Assembly (NCBI RefSeq): GCF_001457595.1
Contig: NZ_LN831039.1
Coordinates: forward strand, 5,940,001 to 5,972,000
Source of the DNA: Mycolicibacterium smegmatis
GTDB lineage: Bacteria; Actinomycetota; Actinomycetes; Mycobacteriales; Mycobacteriaceae
DNA: 32,000 nt
Direction: 5' to 3'
In this document: positions 5,509 through 18,768 of the stretch, piece by piece
How the letters are laid out: each line of letters opens with the position of its first letter
How positions within the stretch are numbered: the first letter of the stretch is position 1
Position numbers and translations under genes: made by a program
Notes under the pieces: model-generated
The model's database searches: none
What the model saw: only the letters and a program-made list of their open reading frames with translations
Told to the model about the DNA's origin: nothing

Positions 5509-6648
5509 TTACACGCGCGCGGTCAGCTTGCGCAGCGTGGCGTACTCGCTGTCCTTGTAGGGCCGCCCGTCGGGACGCAGCAGATCGTGGAACCAGACGT
5601 TGGGCACCTTGGTGTAGGGCTTGTCCCAGGAATCCCACGGGAAGTAGGTCTGCGTCTTGCCCGCCACCAGACCCCAGCTGTAGGCGCCCACGTTGTGGCG
5701 TTTGGCGACGGGCAGCACCCCCTCAAGCGTGCTGCCCTCGCTGCGTGCCAGGTACTCGGTGCACAGGATCGGCCGGCCGAGTGGCTCCAACTCGGCAATG
5801 CGGGCCTCGAACTCGTCGGGGCCCGCATAGGAGTGGAAGGAGATGACGTCGGAGTTGTCGAGTTGGAAGCTCGCCATCTCGCTGCGGCGCCCTCTCTCCC
5901 AACTGCCCTGCCACACCCCGCTGGTCAGGGGTTGTGCGGCGTTGACCGACCGCGCCCAGCCGAACACCTGGGGCAGCAGCGCGCCGACGGCGTCCAGCTT
6001 GTCGGAGCGCTCGACCTTGCGGTACTGCCTGGCCGGGTTGTCGGGCTCGTTCCACAGATCCCAGCCCAGCACGCGCTGGTCGTTGCGGAACTGGCTCATG
6101 ACGCCGACGACGTAGTCGCGCAGCACGGGCCGGTAGCGCGGATCGTCGATGCGCTGCGCGCCCGGGCTCTGGACCCAGCCCGAATTGTGCACGCCCGGCG
6201 TCGGCGCGCGCTGCGCGCCGGGTTTGGGCAGCGGATCCCAGCACGAGTCGAACAACACGAACAGCGGCTTGATGCCCTGGCGCGAAGCGATCGAGACGAA
6301 CTGGGCGAGCCGGTTCTGGAAGCCCGCGCGGTCCTGCGCCCACAGCAGGTCGTGCAGGAACACCCGCACGGTGTTGAAGCCGAGCAGCCGGCACGCCCCG
6401 AGCTCGCTGTCGATGCGCCGCGGGTCGTAGGTGCCTGCCGAGAACATCTCGAGCTGGTTGATCGCGTTGGACGTGATGAAGTTCGTGCCGACCAGCCAGC
6501 CCTGCGCCTGATACCAGGCGTTCGCGCGTTCCACGGGCCACTGGCCCGGCGCCGCGGACGCGCGCGGTGCGGTGGTCACCAGTGGGGAGATTGCCGCTGA
6601 CGCTGCCAGAACCAGCGGGATCTTGAGGGCCGTTCGACGGTGCACCAC
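5509..6648 (-). CDS. Secreted glycoside hydrolase family 5 (cellulase/mannanase-like)
   Basis: The GH5 acid/base motif WDLWNEPDN and the nucleophile motif ILCTEY lie about 110 aa apart. The N-terminal signal peptide is HRRTALKIPLVLAASAAISPLVTTAPRASAA. The likely start is a GTG at 6645 or 6648 rather than the track's 6699. Confidence 0.8.
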   Translation of the reverse strand: MVHRRTALKIPLVLAASAAISPLVTTAPRASAAPGQWPVERANAWYQAQGWLVGTNFITSNAINQLEMFSAGTYDPRRIDSELGACRLLGFNTVRVFLHDLLWAQDRAGFQNRLAQFVSIASRQGIKPLFVLFDSCWDPLPKPGAQRAPTPGVHNSGWVQSPGAQRIDDPRYRPVLRDYVVGVMSQFRNDQRVLGWDLWNEPDNPARQYRKVERSDKLDAVGALLPQVFGWARSVNAAQPLTSGVWQGSWERGRRSEMASFQLDNSDVISFHSYAGPDEFEARIAELEPLGRPILCTEYLARSEGSTLEGVLPVAKRHNVGAYSWGLVAGKTQTYFPWDSWDKPYTKVPNVWFHDLLRPDGRPYKDSEYATLRKLTARV

Positions 6649-14559: not shown

Positions 14560-15473
14560 GGTGTATCACGTCGGGCGAGCTTGGGAGCGCCCAATGTGCG
14601 CCAATCGGGAACATCCGGCGGCATGCCGACGGGCCAGCGGTTCTCGTTGGCGGCGGCCCAGTGCGCATGCCCGAGTTCGTGGATGTGGAACGCGTGGTGC
14701 AACGCCTCGGCGAAGCCCATCGAGTCGGCAGCGGCGTTCACCGAATCCTTCACCAGCAGCGCAGCCATCGTGGGCCGTTCGGCGATCCGCCGCGCGAACT
14801 CCAGGGTCTTGTCCTCCAGCTCTTCGCGGCCGAACACCTTGGACACCATGCCCAGCCGGTAGGCCTCGTCGGCGTCGATCGAATCGCCGGTCAGCAGCAG
14901 TTCTTTGGCCTTGCGCGGGCCGAATTCCCAAGGGTGCGCGTAGTACTCGACGCCGGGCATGCCCATCCGGACGGCCACCACGTCGCTGAACCTGGCGTCG
15001 TCGGCGGCCACGATCAGATCGCACGCCCAGATCAGCATCAGGGCCGCCGAGATGGCGTTGCCCTGCACCTGGGCGATGGTGATCTTGCGCAGATCGCGCC
15101 AGCGTTTGGTGTTCTCGAAATAGAAGTGCCATTCCTGCCGGTAGGTGCGCTCGGCGACGCCGGCCACCGTCGCGCCGTAGCCGGCGAACGTCGGGTGCTG
15201 CCCGGGGCCGGGTTCGCGTTCGGCGAGTGCCTCCTCGGAACCGAGGTCGTGGCCGGCCGAGAAATTCTTGCCGCGCGCGGCCAGGATGACCACGCGCACG
15301 GTGTCGTCGGCCTCGGCGCGGGCGAACGCCTCGTCGAGTTGCACGAGAAGCGTGCGGGACTGCGCATTCTGCGCCTGCGGGCGGTTGAGCCAGATCCGGG
15401 CGATACGCCCTTCGTCGAGCGTCTCGTACTCGATCTGGCGGGCCTGGCCGCCGTCGCCGTCGGAACCGGTCAT
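14556..15473 (-). CDS. Enoyl-CoA hydratase/isomerase (crotonase) family protein
   Basis: Crotonase fold motifs (RIWLNRPQAQNA, GKNFSAGHDLG, AQVQGNAISAALML). The likely start is ATG 15473 (MTGSDGDG). Confidence 0.85.
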   Translation of the reverse strand: MTGSDGDGGQARQIEYETLDEGRIARIWLNRPQAQNAQSRTLLVQLDEAFARAEADDTVRVVILAARGKNFSAGHDLGSEEALAEREPGPGQHPTFAGYGATVAGVAERTYRQEWHFYFENTKRWRDLRKITIAQVQGNAISAALMLIWACDLIVAADDARFSDVVAVRMGMPGVEYYAHPWEFGPRKAKELLLTGDSIDADEAYRLGMVSKVFGREELEDKTLEFARRIAERPTMAALLVKDSVNAAADSMGFAEALHHAFHIHELGHAHWAAANENRWPVGMPPDVPDWRTLGAPKLARRDTP

Positions 15474-15541
15474 GTCGAACCACCTCATCAGCAGGTATGG
15501 CACTTAACAAAATGCACCATACGTGTATCGCCCCAGTCATC

Positions 15542-15585
15542 TCACACCGGGATCACAGCAATCGAACAGAATCATCACAGCAGAC
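15542..15585 (+). promoter_or_regulatory. Four 11-bp-phased direct repeats, two of them perfect TCACAGC (PhoP-box-like array)
   Basis: The sequence reads TCACACCgggaTCACAGCaatcGAACAGAatcaTCACAGCagac, with units starting at 15542, 15553, 15564 and 15575. It sits in the 264-bp divergent intergenic region between the hydratase start (15473) and the first small secreted protein gene (15738). Confidence 0.5.
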
Positions 15586-15737
15586 ACCAAGCCGGCATTG
15601 GACGCCGCGACTATCGCGCGCTTATCCGTTGTCGCGCGTATGATGTCGTACGCGAAGCGATACCTGGCCGCCACCCCAACGCGGACCCGACGGGCATCTA
15701 CAGCAAACATACAGGAACCTCAGAAAAGGGCACGCGA

Positions 15738-16109
15738 ATGACCATCTCCCAGTTCACCGCCCGCCGGCTGCCCCTCGCCGTCGGCATGGCGTGCGCAGCC
15801 GCCGCGGTCGCTGTCGCTCCGGTGTTCTCGGCGTTGTCCGCACCCACGTCGGCTCTGGCGGCGTGCCCCAACGGGGAAACCGAGGACACCTTCACCAACC
15901 AGTGCGTGCCCGATCTGGTGCCCAACTCGCCCGAGCCCGCGTTCTCCACTGCCCCCAACCAGCTGCCGCAGATCGACGGCATCCCGTGCACGGGCGCCAA
16001 CACCGGACAGTGCATCGGCCTGGGCGAGGAGCAGCAGGCGCAGGGCCCGGCCGCCGTCCCGCGCTCGTCGGTCGGCAGCAGCCCCACCGTCACCGGCCAC
16101 ACGAACTGA
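15738..16109 (+). CDS. Small secreted (possibly lipidated) four-cysteine protein, paralogue 1 of 3
   Basis: The signal peptide ends ALA|AC. The mature part is ACPNGETEDTFTNQCVPDLVPNSP...IPCTGANTGQCIGLGEEQ. It is homologous to the two downstream ORFs. Only the last 123 codons of the 538-aa track ORF are taken as real. Confidence 0.7.
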   Translation: MTISQFTARRLPLAVGMACAAAAVAVAPVFSALSAPTSALAACPNGETEDTFTNQCVPDLVPNSPEPAFSTAPNQLPQIDGIPCTGANTGQCIGLGEEQQAQGPAAVPRSSVGSSPTVTGHTN

Positions 16110-16204
16110 TCAGATCCGGCCTGGATCCGATCCGACGCAAATCACATACGCGGGCTGATCGCGATATAGCCCGATTTCGCCCCCGGCGGCCATAAACTGC
16201 TGGG

Positions 16205-16537
16205 GTGATTCGCACTGTCTTTGCTGCGGCGGCCTGCGCCCTCGGCGTGTCGGCGCTGGCCCTCGTCCCCGCACCGGCCGCATCGGCCGCGTGCCACAAC
16301 GGGGAAGAAGAAGACACCTACACCATGGTGTGCACCCCGTTCATGGTGCCCAATTCGCCTGGGGCGTTCAGCGGGATCCCGGGCAATCCGGACCTCCCGG
16401 CCGTGAACCTGCCCGGCGGCGGTGGCGCCATCCCGTGCACGGGCCACAACGCGGGCGAATGCATCGGGCTGGCCGAGGAGGACGCGGCCGAGGGACCGAT
16501 GGCGCAGCCACGGTCGATCATCAGCGCGAGCCCGTAA
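16205..16537 (+). CDS. Small secreted four-cysteine protein, paralogue 2 of 3
   Basis: The signal peptide ends ASA|AC. The mature part is ACHNGEEEDTYTMVCTPFMVPNSP...LPAVNLPGGGGAIPCTGHNAGECIGLAEED. Differences from paralogue 3 are mostly at third codon positions. GTG start. Confidence 0.7.
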   Translation: MIRTVFAAAACALGVSALALVPAPAASAACHNGEEEDTYTMVCTPFMVPNSPGAFSGIPGNPDLPAVNLPGGGGAIPCTGHNAGECIGLAEEDAAEGPMAQPRSIISASP

Positions 16538-16647
16538 CGAACGCCCAGTTCAGGGCCGCATTTCAGGGAGCTCCAAGAACTGATGCAGATTATTCCCAGC
16601 TTCCTTAGAATTCTTCCCGACGAAACAGTCAGACAACTACAGAAAGC

Positions 16648-17043
16648 GTGACAATGGCGACCTTCCCGTACTCACTGCGACGACTGATCCTTGCCGGCGG
16701 ATTCGTGGTCGCTGCGGCCGCCGCTCCGGCGATCACCGTGTTCGCCGTTCCCGATTCCGCCATGCCCACGGCGGCGTGCCCTGGTGGTGAGGAAGAGGAC
16801 CTGTACACCGGCGTGTGCGTGCCGCACACGGTCCCGAACTCGGGCGGGTCGTTCAGCCCGATCCCCGGTAACCCCAACCTGCCCGCGGTCAACCTGCCTG
16901 GTGGCGGCGGATCCATCCCCTGCACCGGCAACAACACGGGTCAGTGCATCGGCCTGGCCGAGGAAGCCCAGTCCCAGGCCCCCTCGGTGACCCCGGAGTC
17001 GTCGGTCGGCAGCAGCCCGACGGTCCACGGTTCGATCGGCTGA
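16648..17043 (+). CDS. Small secreted four-cysteine protein, paralogue 3 of 3
   Basis: The signal peptide ends PTA|AC. The mature part is ACPGGEEEDLYTGVCVPHTVPNSG...LPAVNLPGGGGSIPCTGNNTGQCIGLAEEA. The C-terminal SSVGSSPTV is shared with paralogue 1. The start is GTG 16648 or ATG 16654. Confidence 0.7.
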   Translation: MTMATFPYSLRRLILAGGFVVAAAAAPAITVFAVPDSAMPTAACPGGEEEDLYTGVCVPHTVPNSGGSFSPIPGNPNLPAVNLPGGGGSIPCTGNNTGQCIGLAEEAQSQAPSVTPESSVGSSPTVHGSIG

Positions 17044-17053
17044 CCAGCGGTGA

Positions 17054-17078
17054 GGCGACCGGGATTTTCCCGGTCGCC
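17054..17078 (+). terminator. Perfect 11-bp stem, 3-nt loop hairpin after the paralogue cluster (no U-tract)
   Basis: ggcgaccggga-ttt-tcccggtcgcc, starting 11 nt after the stop of paralogue 3. It is GC-rich, like the tail-less terminators common in mycobacteria. Confidence 0.45.
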
Positions 17079-17091
17079 TACAGTTGTTCTC

Positions 17092-17256
17092 ATGCCTGCG
17101 AAAACTGATCCCGCCGATCTCGGCGACGTGGAACCGCTAGCCGACGACACCGCCAGCCAGGCGCGCCGGGTGGTCGCCACCTACGCGACCGACGCCGACG
17201 AATGCCGCATGTTCCTGTCGATGCTCGGTATTGGGCCCTCGAAGACCGAGGTCTAG
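17092..17256 (+). CDS. Small conserved hypothetical protein (54 aa) abutting otsA
   Basis: ATG at 17092 (MPAKTDPADLGDVEPLADDTASQARRVVATYATDADECRMFLSMLGIGPSKTEV). Its TAG stop is immediately followed by the otsA ATG (TAGATG). The longer track ORF would start inside the hairpin. Confidence 0.45.
   Translation: MPAKTDPADLGDVEPLADDTASQARRVVATYATDADECRMFLSMLGIGPSKTEV

Positions 17257-18764
<1,508 letters not shown>

Positions 18765-18768
<4 letters not shown>

What the first reader, a model, noticed from the sequence alone, without database searches (positions are those of the whole stretch)
15738..17043. Tandem triplication of an uncharacterised small four-cysteine secreted protein family next to otsA and mce4
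Three consecutive same-strand ORFs of 123, 110 and 131 aa each have a signal peptide ending A-A-C. Each has an approximately 80-aa mature domain with the shared pattern AC-x-[NG]GE-x-ED-x-[FY]T-x2-C-x-P-x2-VPNS ... IPCTG-x-N-x-G-x-CIGL-x-EE. The four invariant Cys are spaced C-x11-C and C-x6-C, which probably form two disulfides, and an acidic patch follows the first Cys. Paralogues 2 and 3 differ mainly at synonymous third positions in the LPAVNLPGGGG-IPCTG block. That pattern argues for real coding sequence and an old duplication kept under purifying selection. Paralogue 1 has a plausible lipobox (LAAC); the others look like signal peptidase I substrates. I recognise no catalytic or structural family. 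The size, disulfide pattern and multiplicity would fit a secreted effector, ligand or pheromone-like molecule, or a cell-envelope-binding module.
Basis: seen in the sequence. Interest (0 to 1): 0.7.

Follow-up and report, generated by a model that had tools for sequence, protein, structure and literature searches.

The report
Three exported four-cysteine miniprotein genes
Three real, anciently duplicated genes in Mycolicibacterium smegmatis encode small, acidic, probably exported four-cysteine proteins; the family is restricted to soil mycobacteria, matches no characterised family, carries a baseless database name ("intersectin-EH binding protein Ibp1"), and its function is still unknown.

Summary
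Three same-strand genes (15738-16109, 16205-16537, 16654-17043) encode 50-58% identical paralogues. Each has an N-terminal export signal and an 81-88-residue mature part with four near-invariant Cys (exactly four in 238 of 240 homologues).

The window is M. smegmatis, and by gene order these are MSMEG_5887-5889. The family matches nothing in Pfam, NCBIfam, PDB, PHROGs or PADLOC. NCBI calls it "intersectin-EH binding protein Ibp1". That name is unfounded: there is no ENTH domain and no NPF motif in any of 240 homologues.

In all 77 related genomes examined, all Mycobacteriaceae, 2-3 copies sit between an enoyl-CoA hydratase gene and crsL-otsA. Copies group by array position, so there are three old orthogroups, with dN/dS about 0.3. 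Each gene appears to have its own promoter. The last copy has a strongly conserved promoter and ribosome-binding region, and published RT-PCR shows it co-transcribed with crsL.

Two AlphaFold runs gave pLDDT about 61. Only the hairpin between Cys1 and Cys2 was moderately confident.

Best reading: Sec-exported, disulfide-stapled, largely flexible acidic envelope proteins. Their function is unknown. This is a genuine orphan family of moderate interest.

The parts
15738..16109 (+). First-position paralogue F, 123 aa; by gene order MSMEG_5887. It has an RR-containing hydrophobic N-terminus ending LAAC (lipobox-like). The 81-aa acidic mature part has 4 Cys and a long C-tail ...SSPTVTGHTN.
   Evidence: ORF and translation. 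It is 100% identical to an M. smegmatis protein named Ibp1. The F orthogroup has a strict lipobox in 61/77 and RR in 70/77. Median dN/dS is 0.33. A CrsL ChIP-seq peak is annotated to the 5' end of MSMEG_5887.
16205..16537 (+). Middle paralogue M, 110 aa, GTG start; by gene order MSMEG_5888. It has a short, Sec-like signal with one Arg. The mature part carries the GGGG insert and ends ...SASP.
   Evidence: In the M orthogroup RR occurs in only 17/46 and the short C-tail in 45/46. Median dN/dS is 0.29.
16193..16198 (+). A -10-like hexamer, TAAACT, starts 12 nt before the GTG start of the middle gene. This layout is typical of a mycobacterial leaderless mRNA.
   Evidence: TANNNT occurs at -12/-13 in 33 of 46 middle copies. 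A ChIP-seq peak is annotated to the 5' end of MSMEG_5888. Leaderless initiation is inferred, not shown.
16654..17043 (+). Last paralogue L, 129 aa; MSMEG_5889. It has an RR-containing N-terminus (MATFPYSLRRLILAGGF...), no lipobox (TAAC), the GGGG insert and a long tail ...SSPTVHGSIG.
   Evidence: In the L orthogroup a strict lipobox occurs in 2/77, RR in 73/77, the GGG insert in 63/77 and the long tail in 61/77. Median dN/dS is 0.31. RT-PCR shows co-transcription with crsL.
16584..16611 (+). Conserved promoter-like element upstream of the last paralogue: TGCAGA (16584-16589), a 16-nt spacer, then TAGAAT (16606-16611). It is probably the P0 promoter reported for MSMEG_5889-crsL.
   Evidence: It is nearly invariant across 34-77 genomes. 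P0 is described in PMC12709188. That this element is P0 is my inference.
16640..16659 (+). Near-invariant block CAGAAAGCGTGACAATGGCG, comprising the AGAAAG Shine-Dalgarno sequence, a 7-nt spacer and the ATG start.
   Evidence: No conserved RNA structure and no Rfam match.
17053..17079 (+). GC-rich 12-bp hairpin (AGGCGACCGGGA / TCCCGGTCGCCT) lying between the stop of the last paralogue and crsL. It looks like a partial terminator or insulator, and its 3' arm abuts the crsL -10 element.
   Evidence: A hairpin in this position is seen in most of the 77 loci, with arms that differ in sequence but stay complementary. For the 65-nt segment starting at the stop codon, the minimum free energy is -31.4 kcal/mol in the window and the median over 77 loci is -27.4. 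Its function is inferred.
17079..17256 (+). Context: the crsL -10 hexamer TACAGT (17079-17084) and the 54-aa gene crsL (17092-17256). crsL encodes the CarD/RNA-polymerase-binding protein MSMEG_5890. otsA follows directly (17257-18768).
   Evidence: TANNNT occurs at -12/-13 of the crsL ATG in 76/76 loci. Identity and function of CrsL come from PMC12709188. otsA carries Glyco_transf_20.

Best explanation
These are three ancient paralogues of a Mycobacteriaceae-specific family of small exported envelope proteins.

**Shown here**
- The genes are real and under purifying selection. They are kept as a 2-3-gene array immediately upstream of crsL-otsA in all 77 related genomes examined.
- Each copy has an N-terminal export-type hydrophobic signal.
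- The mature part is 81-88 residues. It is 57-62% Pro/Gly/Ser/Thr/Asn/Ala and carries 7-10 acidic residues against 0-1 basic.
- It has four near-invariant Cys arranged as two close pairs.
- No confident globular fold is predicted.

**Inferred mechanism**
- The precursors cross the plasma membrane by the Sec route.
- Envelope thiol oxidoreductases close two short-range disulfides. Cys1-Cys2 staples a 14-residue beta-hairpin that carries the GE-x-ED acidic patch. Cys3-Cys4 closes the 9-residue CTG-x-N-x-G-x-C loop.
- These two rigid, highly conserved loops sit on a flexible acidic Pro/Gly-rich chain. They form the recognition surface for a conserved envelope partner or a cation.
- The first copy may stay membrane-tethered, either as a lipoprotein or through an uncleaved signal. 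The middle and last copies are probably released by signal peptidase I.

**Expression**
- Each gene appears to have its own promoter. The middle gene looks leaderless.
- The last gene has a strongly conserved promoter and an extended ribosome-binding region.
- Part of the last gene's transcription reads through a conserved hairpin into crsL-otsA. This couples it to that heat and trehalose stress operon.

The biochemical role is not known.
For: **Existence and paralogy:**

**Organism and annotation:** the proteins are 99-100% identical to M. smegmatis proteins, and the gene calls match.

**Cysteines:** exactly four in 238/240 homologues. They are still kept in relatives only 24-43% identical to one another (alignment A4).

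**Selection:** median dN/dS is 0.29-0.33. Ten of 11 differences in a conserved block are synonymous.

**Age of the duplication:** copies cluster by array position.

**Synteny:** sdr(-) ech(-) | 2-3 copies(+) | crsL(+) otsA(+) in 77/77 loci. Fifty of the 81 loci scanned (these 77 plus four further M. smegmatis strains, L001-L004) have 3 copies and 31 have 2.

**Export signal:** positive n-region, 19-residue hydrophobicity 2.1-2.2, and no hydrophobic segment afterwards.

**Composition:**

**Structure:** two AlphaFold runs gave mean pLDDT 61.3 and 60.7 and pTM 0.26 and 0.23. Only the Cys1-Cys2 hairpin reached about 75-80.

**Disulfide role of Cys1:** the divergent subfamily next to the suf operon has AKC before Cys1, which cannot be a lipobox. 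This favours a disulfide role for Cys1.

**Promoters and leader:**. Hairpin.

**Experimental expression evidence:** RT-PCR of an MSMEG_5889-crsL transcript, RNA-seq signal for MSMEG_5889, and CrsL ChIP-seq peaks at the 5' ends of MSMEG_5887, 5888 and 5890 (PMC12709188). A microarray signal exists for MSMEG_5887 (PMC5445863).
Against: - Nothing shows export, cleavage, disulfide formation or lipidation directly. No signal-peptide predictor could be run, and no proteomic detection was found in the searchable literature.
- If the first copy is lipidated on Cys1, its Cys1-Cys2 disulfide cannot form. The two ideas conflict for that copy.
- The pre-Cys region is long (41-42 residues in copies 1 and 3) and unusually conserved. 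An uncleaved signal anchor is therefore possible.
- Low AlphaFold confidence may mean an unpredicted small fold rather than flexibility.
- Conserved synteny within one bacterial family is weak evidence for a functional link to crsL-otsA. Divergent family members sit in unrelated contexts.
Confidence: 0.6

Rival explanations
1. The proteins are Tat-exported metal- or iron-sulfur-binding proteins. The twin arginines direct folded, cofactor-loaded protein through the Tat pathway, and the four invariant Cys ligate a metal or cluster, as in periplasmic HiPIPs.
For: - RR followed by hydrophobic residues occurs in 208/240 homologues, with a long signal (median 34 residues from the residue preceding the RR to Cys1).
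- All four Cys are invariant.
- A divergent subfamily lies directly after the sufRBDCSUT operon and before a thioredoxin gene in three genomes.
- Another divergent member lies near feoAB and a NifU gene.
Against: - The middle-copy orthogroup lacks RR in 29/46, and the suf-adjacent members have RK, RR or a single R. The same mature domain is therefore exported without a twin-arginine motif.
- The residue after RR is hydrophobic (RRLIL) rather than polar as in S/T-RR-x-FLK.
- The mature part has only 16-21% hydrophobic residues and 2-3 aromatics, which is too little to bury a cluster.
- The Cys spacing (x12, about 27-35, x7) is not that of HiPIP, ferredoxin or rubredoxin.
- There is no PDB or Pfam match.
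- The sufT-trxA interval may simply be a variable insertion site. From memory, M. tuberculosis has unrelated genes there.
Confidence: 0.1
2. The proteins are membrane-anchored rather than secreted. The conserved N-terminal hydrophobic segment is an uncleaved signal anchor, or a lipid anchor in the first copy. The proteins act as short acidic tethered modules on the outer face of the plasma membrane.
For: - The hydrophobic stretch is 23-35 uncharged residues long, enough to span the membrane.
- Its sequence (RRLILAGGFAVAVAAAPA) is unusually conserved, with dN/dS 0.38-0.48 for the signal part.
- Many last-copy orthologues have LAQC before Cys1, a poor signal-peptidase I site.
- The first copy has a lipobox in 61/77.
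Against: - The middle copy has a short, classical signal ending ASAA|C.
- A conserved Pro in mid-helix and the A-x-A-like motifs fit cleavage.
- This was not testable here.
- This rival changes the location, not the nature, of the proteins.
Confidence: 0.2
3. The proteins are a secreted signal or antagonistic peptide, pheromone- or bacteriocin-like. The mature 8-9 kDa peptides are released to act on other cells.
For:
- The strong, conserved promoter and ribosome-binding site of the last copy suggest abundant product.
Against: - No immunity, transporter, modification or receptor/kinase gene accompanies the array in any of 77 loci. The neighbours are always sdr, ech, crsL and otsA.
- There are no homologues on plasmids or phages.
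- The sequence is highly conserved between species, whereas pheromones and bacteriocins usually diversify.
- The charge is acidic rather than cationic or amphipathic.
Confidence: 0.07
4. The ORFs are spurious and arise by chance in GC-rich DNA.
For: GC-rich genomes give many long chance ORFs. Several overlap this region on both strands.
Against: - 567-757 homologues were found with E-values down to 1e-76.
- dN/dS is about 0.3, and the substitutions are at third positions.
- The start regions are conserved.
- Transcripts and promoter-associated ChIP peaks are reported.
Confidence: 0.01

Closest known systems
Intersectin-EH binding protein Ibp1 (mammalian epsin-type endocytic adaptor), the name these proteins carry in NCBI and UniRef
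   Same: Only the database label is shared, plus a general richness in Pro, Gly, Ser and Asn.
   Different: There is no ENTH domain or any other Pfam hit. No NPF motif, the EH-domain ligand, occurs in any of 240 homologues. These are bacterial proteins with an export signal and four Cys. The name is an annotation artefact propagated from the original M. smegmatis annotation.
Mycobacterial small Sec-exported proteins and lipoproteins (Lgt/LspA substrates with a lipobox Cys)
   Same: They share an N-terminal positive and hydrophobic signal. The first copy and 61/77 of its orthologues have [LVI][ASTVI][GAS]C. The Ser/Thr/Pro-rich tails resemble the O-mannosylated regions of mycobacterial exported proteins (comparison from general knowledge).
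   Different: Cys1 is invariant even where no lipobox is possible (LAQC, AKC). The signal before the Cys is about 42 residues, much longer than typical lipoprotein signals. There is no sequence relationship to any named lipoprotein family.
Small disulfide-stapled extracellular modules (EGF-like, LDL-receptor class A, TNF-receptor-type hairpins such as BCMA and BAFF-R)
   Same: Both have a short beta-hairpin closed by a disulfide and an acidic character. These were the top Foldseek matches, which are not significant.
   Different: All matches have E > 1 and cover about 17-30 residues of a low-confidence model. The Cys number and spacing differ. No membership is claimed.
High-potential iron-sulfur proteins (HiPIP): small Tat-exported four-Cys proteins
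   Same: They share small size, four Cys, an RR-containing signal and periplasmic location.
   Different: The Cys spacing differs. Aromatic and hydrophobic content is too low. RR is not conserved in the middle copies. There is no sequence or fold match.

Membership tests
Epsin / intersectin-EH binding protein Ibp1 | ENTH domain (Pfam PF01417) | tested here: not met
   No Pfam family reaches threshold. The only hits are DUF7155 at E = 0.2-0.5, on the signal region.
Epsin / intersectin-EH binding protein Ibp1 | NPF motifs that bind EH domains | tested here: not met
   0 of 240 homologues and none of the three window proteins contain NPF.
Bacterial lipoproteins | Lipobox [LVI][ASTVI][GAS]C at the end of the signal peptide | tested here: inconclusive
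   The feature is met by copy 1 (LAAC) and 61/77 of its orthologues. It is met by only 14/46 middle copies and 2/77 last copies. The Cys lies about 12 residues beyond the hydrophobic core, which is atypical.
Bacterial lipoproteins | Diacylglycerol modification and LspA cleavage | not testable with these tools
   This needs labelling, globomycin treatment or mass spectrometry.
Tat substrates | Twin-arginine motif (S/T-R-R-x-F-L-K) conserved in the family | tested here: inconclusive
   x-RR-x-hydrophobic-hydrophobic occurs in 208/240 homologues. However, the x position is hydrophobic. RR is absent from 29/46 middle copies and variable in the suf-adjacent subfamily.
Tat substrates | A folded or cofactor-bearing passenger domain | tested here: not met
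   No confident fold is predicted (pLDDT about 61). The passenger is only 16-21% hydrophobic.
HiPIP and other four-Cys Fe-S proteins | Characteristic Cys spacing and sequence or fold similarity | tested here: not met
   The spacing is C-x12-C ... C-x7-C. There are no PDB sequence hits at E <= 10, no Pfam hit and no Foldseek hit below E = 1.
Sortase substrates (LPXTG sorting signal) | LPXTG followed by a C-terminal hydrophobic segment and a basic tail | tested here: not met
   IPCTG resembles LPXTG. However, it is followed by an acidic, non-hydrophobic region (maximum 15-residue hydrophobicity 0.53-0.83) with 0-1 basic residues.
Pfam DUF7155 (PF23710) | Score at or above the gathering threshold (27 bits) | tested here: not met
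   The scores are 10.9-12.3 bits and cover only the signal-peptide region.

The most novel reading that the evidence does not exclude
The family is a new kind of extracytoplasmic stress protein. These would be abundant, acidic, mostly disordered miniproteins with two disulfide-stapled recognition loops. They would form the envelope-side arm of the CrsL-OtsA heat, desiccation and trehalose module of soil mycobacteria, for example as an envelope hydrophilin or cation buffer, or as a ligand-binding module with a new disulfide-rich fold.
Probability: 0.1. Interest if true: 0.6.

Novelty: new variant of a known kind. Interest (0 to 1): 0.4.

Why it matters
- **Annotation error.** The genes are real, conserved and expressed. 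They carry a misleading eukaryotic name that has been propagated to many genomes. Correcting it removes that error.
- **A tractable orphan family.** The family is compact: about 205 clusters at 50% identity among 1.84 billion representative proteins. It is specific to environmental mycobacteria and has very clear conserved motifs. That makes it workable for finding a new envelope function.
- **Relevance to crsL work.** The last copy is physically and transcriptionally coupled to crsL-otsA. Genetic work on crsL, such as complementation constructs that lack the upstream promoter, has to take this gene into account.
- **Limits.** No catalytic or system-level novelty is demonstrated, and no homologue was seen in pathogens. 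Interest is therefore moderate.

Tried and rejected
- **Profile searches.** Pfam, NCBIfam, PADLOC and PHROGs gave nothing significant.
- **Solved structures.** A PDB sequence profile search returned zero hits at E <= 10.
- **Structure prediction.** Full-length copy 2 with 36 sequences and mature copy 1 with 136 sequences both gave pLDDT about 61 and pTM about 0.25. Foldseek against PDB gave nothing below E = 1. The AlphaFold-database library was unavailable.
- **RNA element upstream of the last copy.** There was no Rfam match. The alignment gave no conserved structure: 3 predicted pairs and no covariation. The conservation is read as promoter plus ribosome-binding site.
- **Mobile-element origin.** tblastn found no hit in phage or plasmid collections.
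- **Sortase signal.** IPCTG read as LPXTG was rejected because there is no C-terminal hydrophobic anchor.
- **Bowman-Birk-type loop.** This was considered for the 9-residue C-T-...-C loop. I rejected it from general knowledge, because the P1 position is Gly and the loop prolines are absent.
- **Simple promoter scan.** It found no sigma-70 consensus site in 15400-17400. The mycobacterial -10-only pattern was detected by cross-species conservation instead.
- **TSS tables.** The supplementary tables of PMC6448022 were truncated in the held copy and did not list these genes.
- **Literature.** Searches for MSMEG_5887-5889 and for Ibp1 found only a microarray table and the CrsL paper.
- **M. tuberculosis.** All named members seen are Mycolicibacterium or environmental Mycobacterium species.
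Full report
**1. Observation**

The three ORFs exist as described, on the + strand: 15738-16109 (123 aa), 16205-16537 (110 aa, GTG start) and 16648/16654-17043 (131/129 aa). They align over their whole length. Forty-six columns are invariant, including the four Cys and the motifs AAC, GE-x-ED, C-x-P, VPNS and IPCTG-x-N-x-G-x-CIGL-x-EE.

tblastn between the copies gives E-values of 1e-21 to 1e-33, and the 32-kb window holds no fourth copy.

In the LPAVNLPGGGGxIPCTG block, copies 2 and 3 differ at 11 of 51 bases. Ten of these are synonymous third positions.

Two small corrections apply:
- The Cys spacings are C-x12-C and C-x7-C.
- The third gene most likely starts at ATG 16654, not GTG 16648. 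The invariant AGAAAG Shine-Dalgarno sequence is 7 nt from the ATG, and homologues start MATF.

**2. Identity of the locus**

The proteins are 99-100% identical to Mycolicibacterium smegmatis proteins. Exact copies of the middle protein lie on M. smegmatis chromosomes with the same neighbours. The order is a Mo-hydroxylase cluster, a short-chain dehydrogenase and an enoyl-CoA hydratase on the minus strand, then the three genes. A 54-aa gene, otsA (Glyco_transf_20), two small Mce-associated genes and the mce4 genes follow.

The 54-aa gene is crsL (MSMEG_5890). It was recently shown to encode a disordered protein that binds CarD and RNA polymerase, and it forms an operon with otsA (MSMEG_5892) (PMC12709188). 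By gene order the three paralogues are therefore MSMEG_5887, 5888 and 5889. MSMEG_5887 is listed as "intersectin-EH binding protein Ibp1" in a 2010 microarray table. MSMEG_5889 is named in the CrsL paper as the gene upstream of crsL.

**3. Are they genes?**

Yes.
- There are 567 and 757 database homologues at E <= 1e-3 for copies 3 and 1.
- Median pairwise dN/dS against orthologues in 45-76 other genomes is 0.29-0.33.
- Exactly four Cys follow the signal region in 238 of 240 homologues.
- Published RT-PCR detects a transcript spanning MSMEG_5889 and crsL. RNA-seq tables list MSMEG_5889.
- CrsL ChIP-seq peaks are annotated to the 5' ends of MSMEG_5887 (enrichment 63), MSMEG_5888 and MSMEG_5890. 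The authors say such peaks mark promoters of actively transcribed genes.

**4. Family and distribution**

Nothing matches in Pfam, NCBIfam, PADLOC, PHROGs or the PDB sequence set.

An exhaustive profile search of 1.84 billion representative proteins finds only 205 clusters at E <= 1e-3. The long hits among them are frameshift chimeras.

Every member that carries an organism name is a Mycolicibacterium or an environmental Mycobacterium species. No phage or plasmid carries a homologue.

The NCBI/UniRef name "intersectin-EH binding protein Ibp1" has no basis. There is no ENTH domain and no NPF motif in any of 240 homologues.

**5. Array structure and history**

I retrieved the 77 best-matching loci from species-representative genomes. 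In all of them, 2 or 3 copies lie between the enoyl-CoA hydratase gene and crsL-otsA, on the same strand as crsL. Counting the four additional M. smegmatis loci as well, 50 loci have 3 copies and 31 have 2.

In a neighbour-joining tree, the copies group by position in the array rather than by species. The array therefore consists of three old orthogroups:

| Orthogroup | Strict lipobox | RR | Other features |
|---|---|---|---|
| F (first) | 61/77 | 70/77 | |
| M (middle) | 14/46 | 17/46 | short signal; short ...SxSP end in 45/46 |
| L (last) | 2/77 | 73/77 | GGG(G) insert in 63/77; long ...SSPTVTGSIG tail in 61/77 |

Two-copy arrays keep F and L.

**6. Expression signals**

*Last copy.* The region upstream is strikingly conserved across genomes. 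It reads TGCAGA, a 16-nt spacer, then CAGCTTCCaTAGAAT (window 16584-16611). The block ACAGAAAGCGTGACrATGGCG at the start is almost invariant. No Rfam family matches and no conserved RNA structure is present. I read this as a promoter plus an extended ribosome-binding region. It is probably the P0 promoter that the CrsL authors invoked.

*Middle copy.* It has TANNNT 12-13 nt before its GTG in 33/46 genomes (window TAAACT, 16193-16198). This is the arrangement of mycobacterial leaderless mRNAs.

*crsL.* It has TANNNT at -12/-13 in 76/76 loci (window TACAGT, 17079-17084).

*Hairpin.* Between the stop of the last copy and that -10 element lies a GC-rich hairpin (17053-17079). Its arms vary in sequence between species but remain complementary. 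It probably acts as a partial terminator or insulator, which fits the reported read-through.

**7. The protein**

The N-termini have a positive n-region and a hydrophobic core (19-residue hydropathy 2.1-2.2). Nothing hydrophobic follows.

The mature parts are 81-88 residues and 57-62% Pro/Gly/Ser/Thr/Asn/Ala. They have 7-10 Asp+Glu against 0-1 Lys+Arg, and only 16-21% hydrophobic residues.

Two AlphaFold2 runs were made: full-length copy 2 with 36 sequences, and mature copy 1 with 136 sequences. They gave mean pLDDT 61.3 and 60.7 and pTM 0.26 and 0.23. Only the hairpin between Cys1 and Cys2 reached about 75-80. Foldseek against PDB gave no match below E = 1. The top non-significant matches were disulfide-stapled hairpins of EGF, LDLR-A and TNFR-type modules.

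Distant relatives, only 24-43% identical to one another, still keep three features:
- CP-x-GE-x-x-D-x-x-T-x-x-C-x-P;
- LP-x-V-x-G-[IV]-PC-x-G-x-N-x-G-x-C-[IV]-GL;
- a C-terminal P-x-S-x-[IV]-S-x-SP.

The two Cys-bounded loops and the extreme C-terminus are therefore the constrained parts.

**8. Interpretation**

The best-supported reading is a set of Sec-exported, disulfide-stapled, otherwise flexible acidic envelope proteins. Their two rigid loops would bind a conserved partner or cation.

Cys1 is most likely a disulfide partner. It is invariant even where a lipobox is impossible, as in LAQC in many last copies and AKC in a divergent subfamily. Lipidation of the first copy remains possible. 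It would conflict with a Cys1-Cys2 bond in that copy.

The Tat/metal-binding rival gains something from the RR motif (208/240). It also gains from an unexpected second context. A divergent subfamily lies directly after sufRBDCSUT and before a 207-aa unknown gene and thioredoxin, in M. komossense and two metagenome-assembled genomes. Another member lies near feoAB and NifU.

However, RR is missing from most middle copies and varies in the suf-adjacent members. The residue after RR is hydrophobic. The domain is also too poor in hydrophobic and aromatic residues to shield a cluster. I give this rival about 0.1.

A pheromone or bacteriocin role lacks any accompanying immunity, transporter or receptor gene in 77 loci.

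**9. Novelty and verdict**

The family is genuinely uncharacterised, clade-restricted and mis-named. It is linked to crsL-otsA by conserved position and by reported co-transcription, more than to mce4. Nothing found points to a new type of system, and the function remains unknown. Interest is 0.4.

Noticed in passing
window 17092-17256 (+), with -10-like TACAGT at 17079-17084: The 54-aa ORF just before otsA is crsL (MSMEG_5890, homologue of Rv3489). It encodes a recently described CarD/RNA-polymerase-binding disordered protein. TANNNT lies 12-13 nt before its ATG in 76/76 related loci, so it is probably translated from a leaderless mRNA.
   Followed up: partly
window 17053-17079 (+): A 12-bp GC-rich hairpin lies between the stop of the third paralogue and the crsL promoter. 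A hairpin at this position is present in most of the 77 loci, and its arms differ in sequence but stay complementary. It is a possible partial terminator or insulator that overlaps the -35 region of the crsL promoter.
   Followed up: partly
window 15552-15560 and 15574-15582 (+), in the divergent ech / paralogue-1 intergenic region: A direct repeat of ATCACAGCA is spaced 22 nt apart. The CACAGC cores are among the few conserved blocks of this intergenic region across 76 genomes. It is a possible regulator binding site.
   Followed up: no
L082/L083 6001-6462, L087 6001-6456, L088 6001-6423: A divergent subfamily of the same four-Cys family (140-153 aa, with a long Ser/Thr/Pro tail) sits immediately after the suf Fe-S assembly operon (sufR-B-D-C-S-U-T). 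A conserved 207-aa unknown gene and a thioredoxin gene follow it. This is seen in M. komossense and two metagenome-assembled genomes.
   Followed up: partly
L084 6001-6393; L085/L086/L089-L091 around 6001-6500: Other divergent members lie in unrelated contexts. One is next to an L,D-transpeptidase, feoAB and a NifU gene. Others lie near a transposase, a GH65 phosphorylase, and small secreted or haem-binding (MHB) and HMA-domain genes.
   Followed up: no
protein P0342 (438 aa, metagenomic): The N-terminal approximately 380 residues look to me like a phage major capsid protein; no domain search was run on them. They are fused to the C-terminal half of this family (…AANPDIPEIDGIPCTGHDSGACIGLAED…TITGSTN). 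This may be an assembly chimera. No homologue was found in the phage collection.
   Followed up: partly
L001 12561-13622 (-), versus the window and L002-L004: One M. smegmatis strain carries a DDE_3/HTH transposase gene inserted between otsA and the Mce-associated genes. The window and three other strains lack it.
   Followed up: no
supplementary tables of PMC12709188: MSMEG_5889 appears among the differentially expressed genes (log2 fold change -1.35) in one RNA-seq comparison of the CrsL study. I did not determine which comparison. It could reflect CrsL/CarD control of the P0 promoter or a polar effect of the dCas9 roadblock.
   Followed up: no
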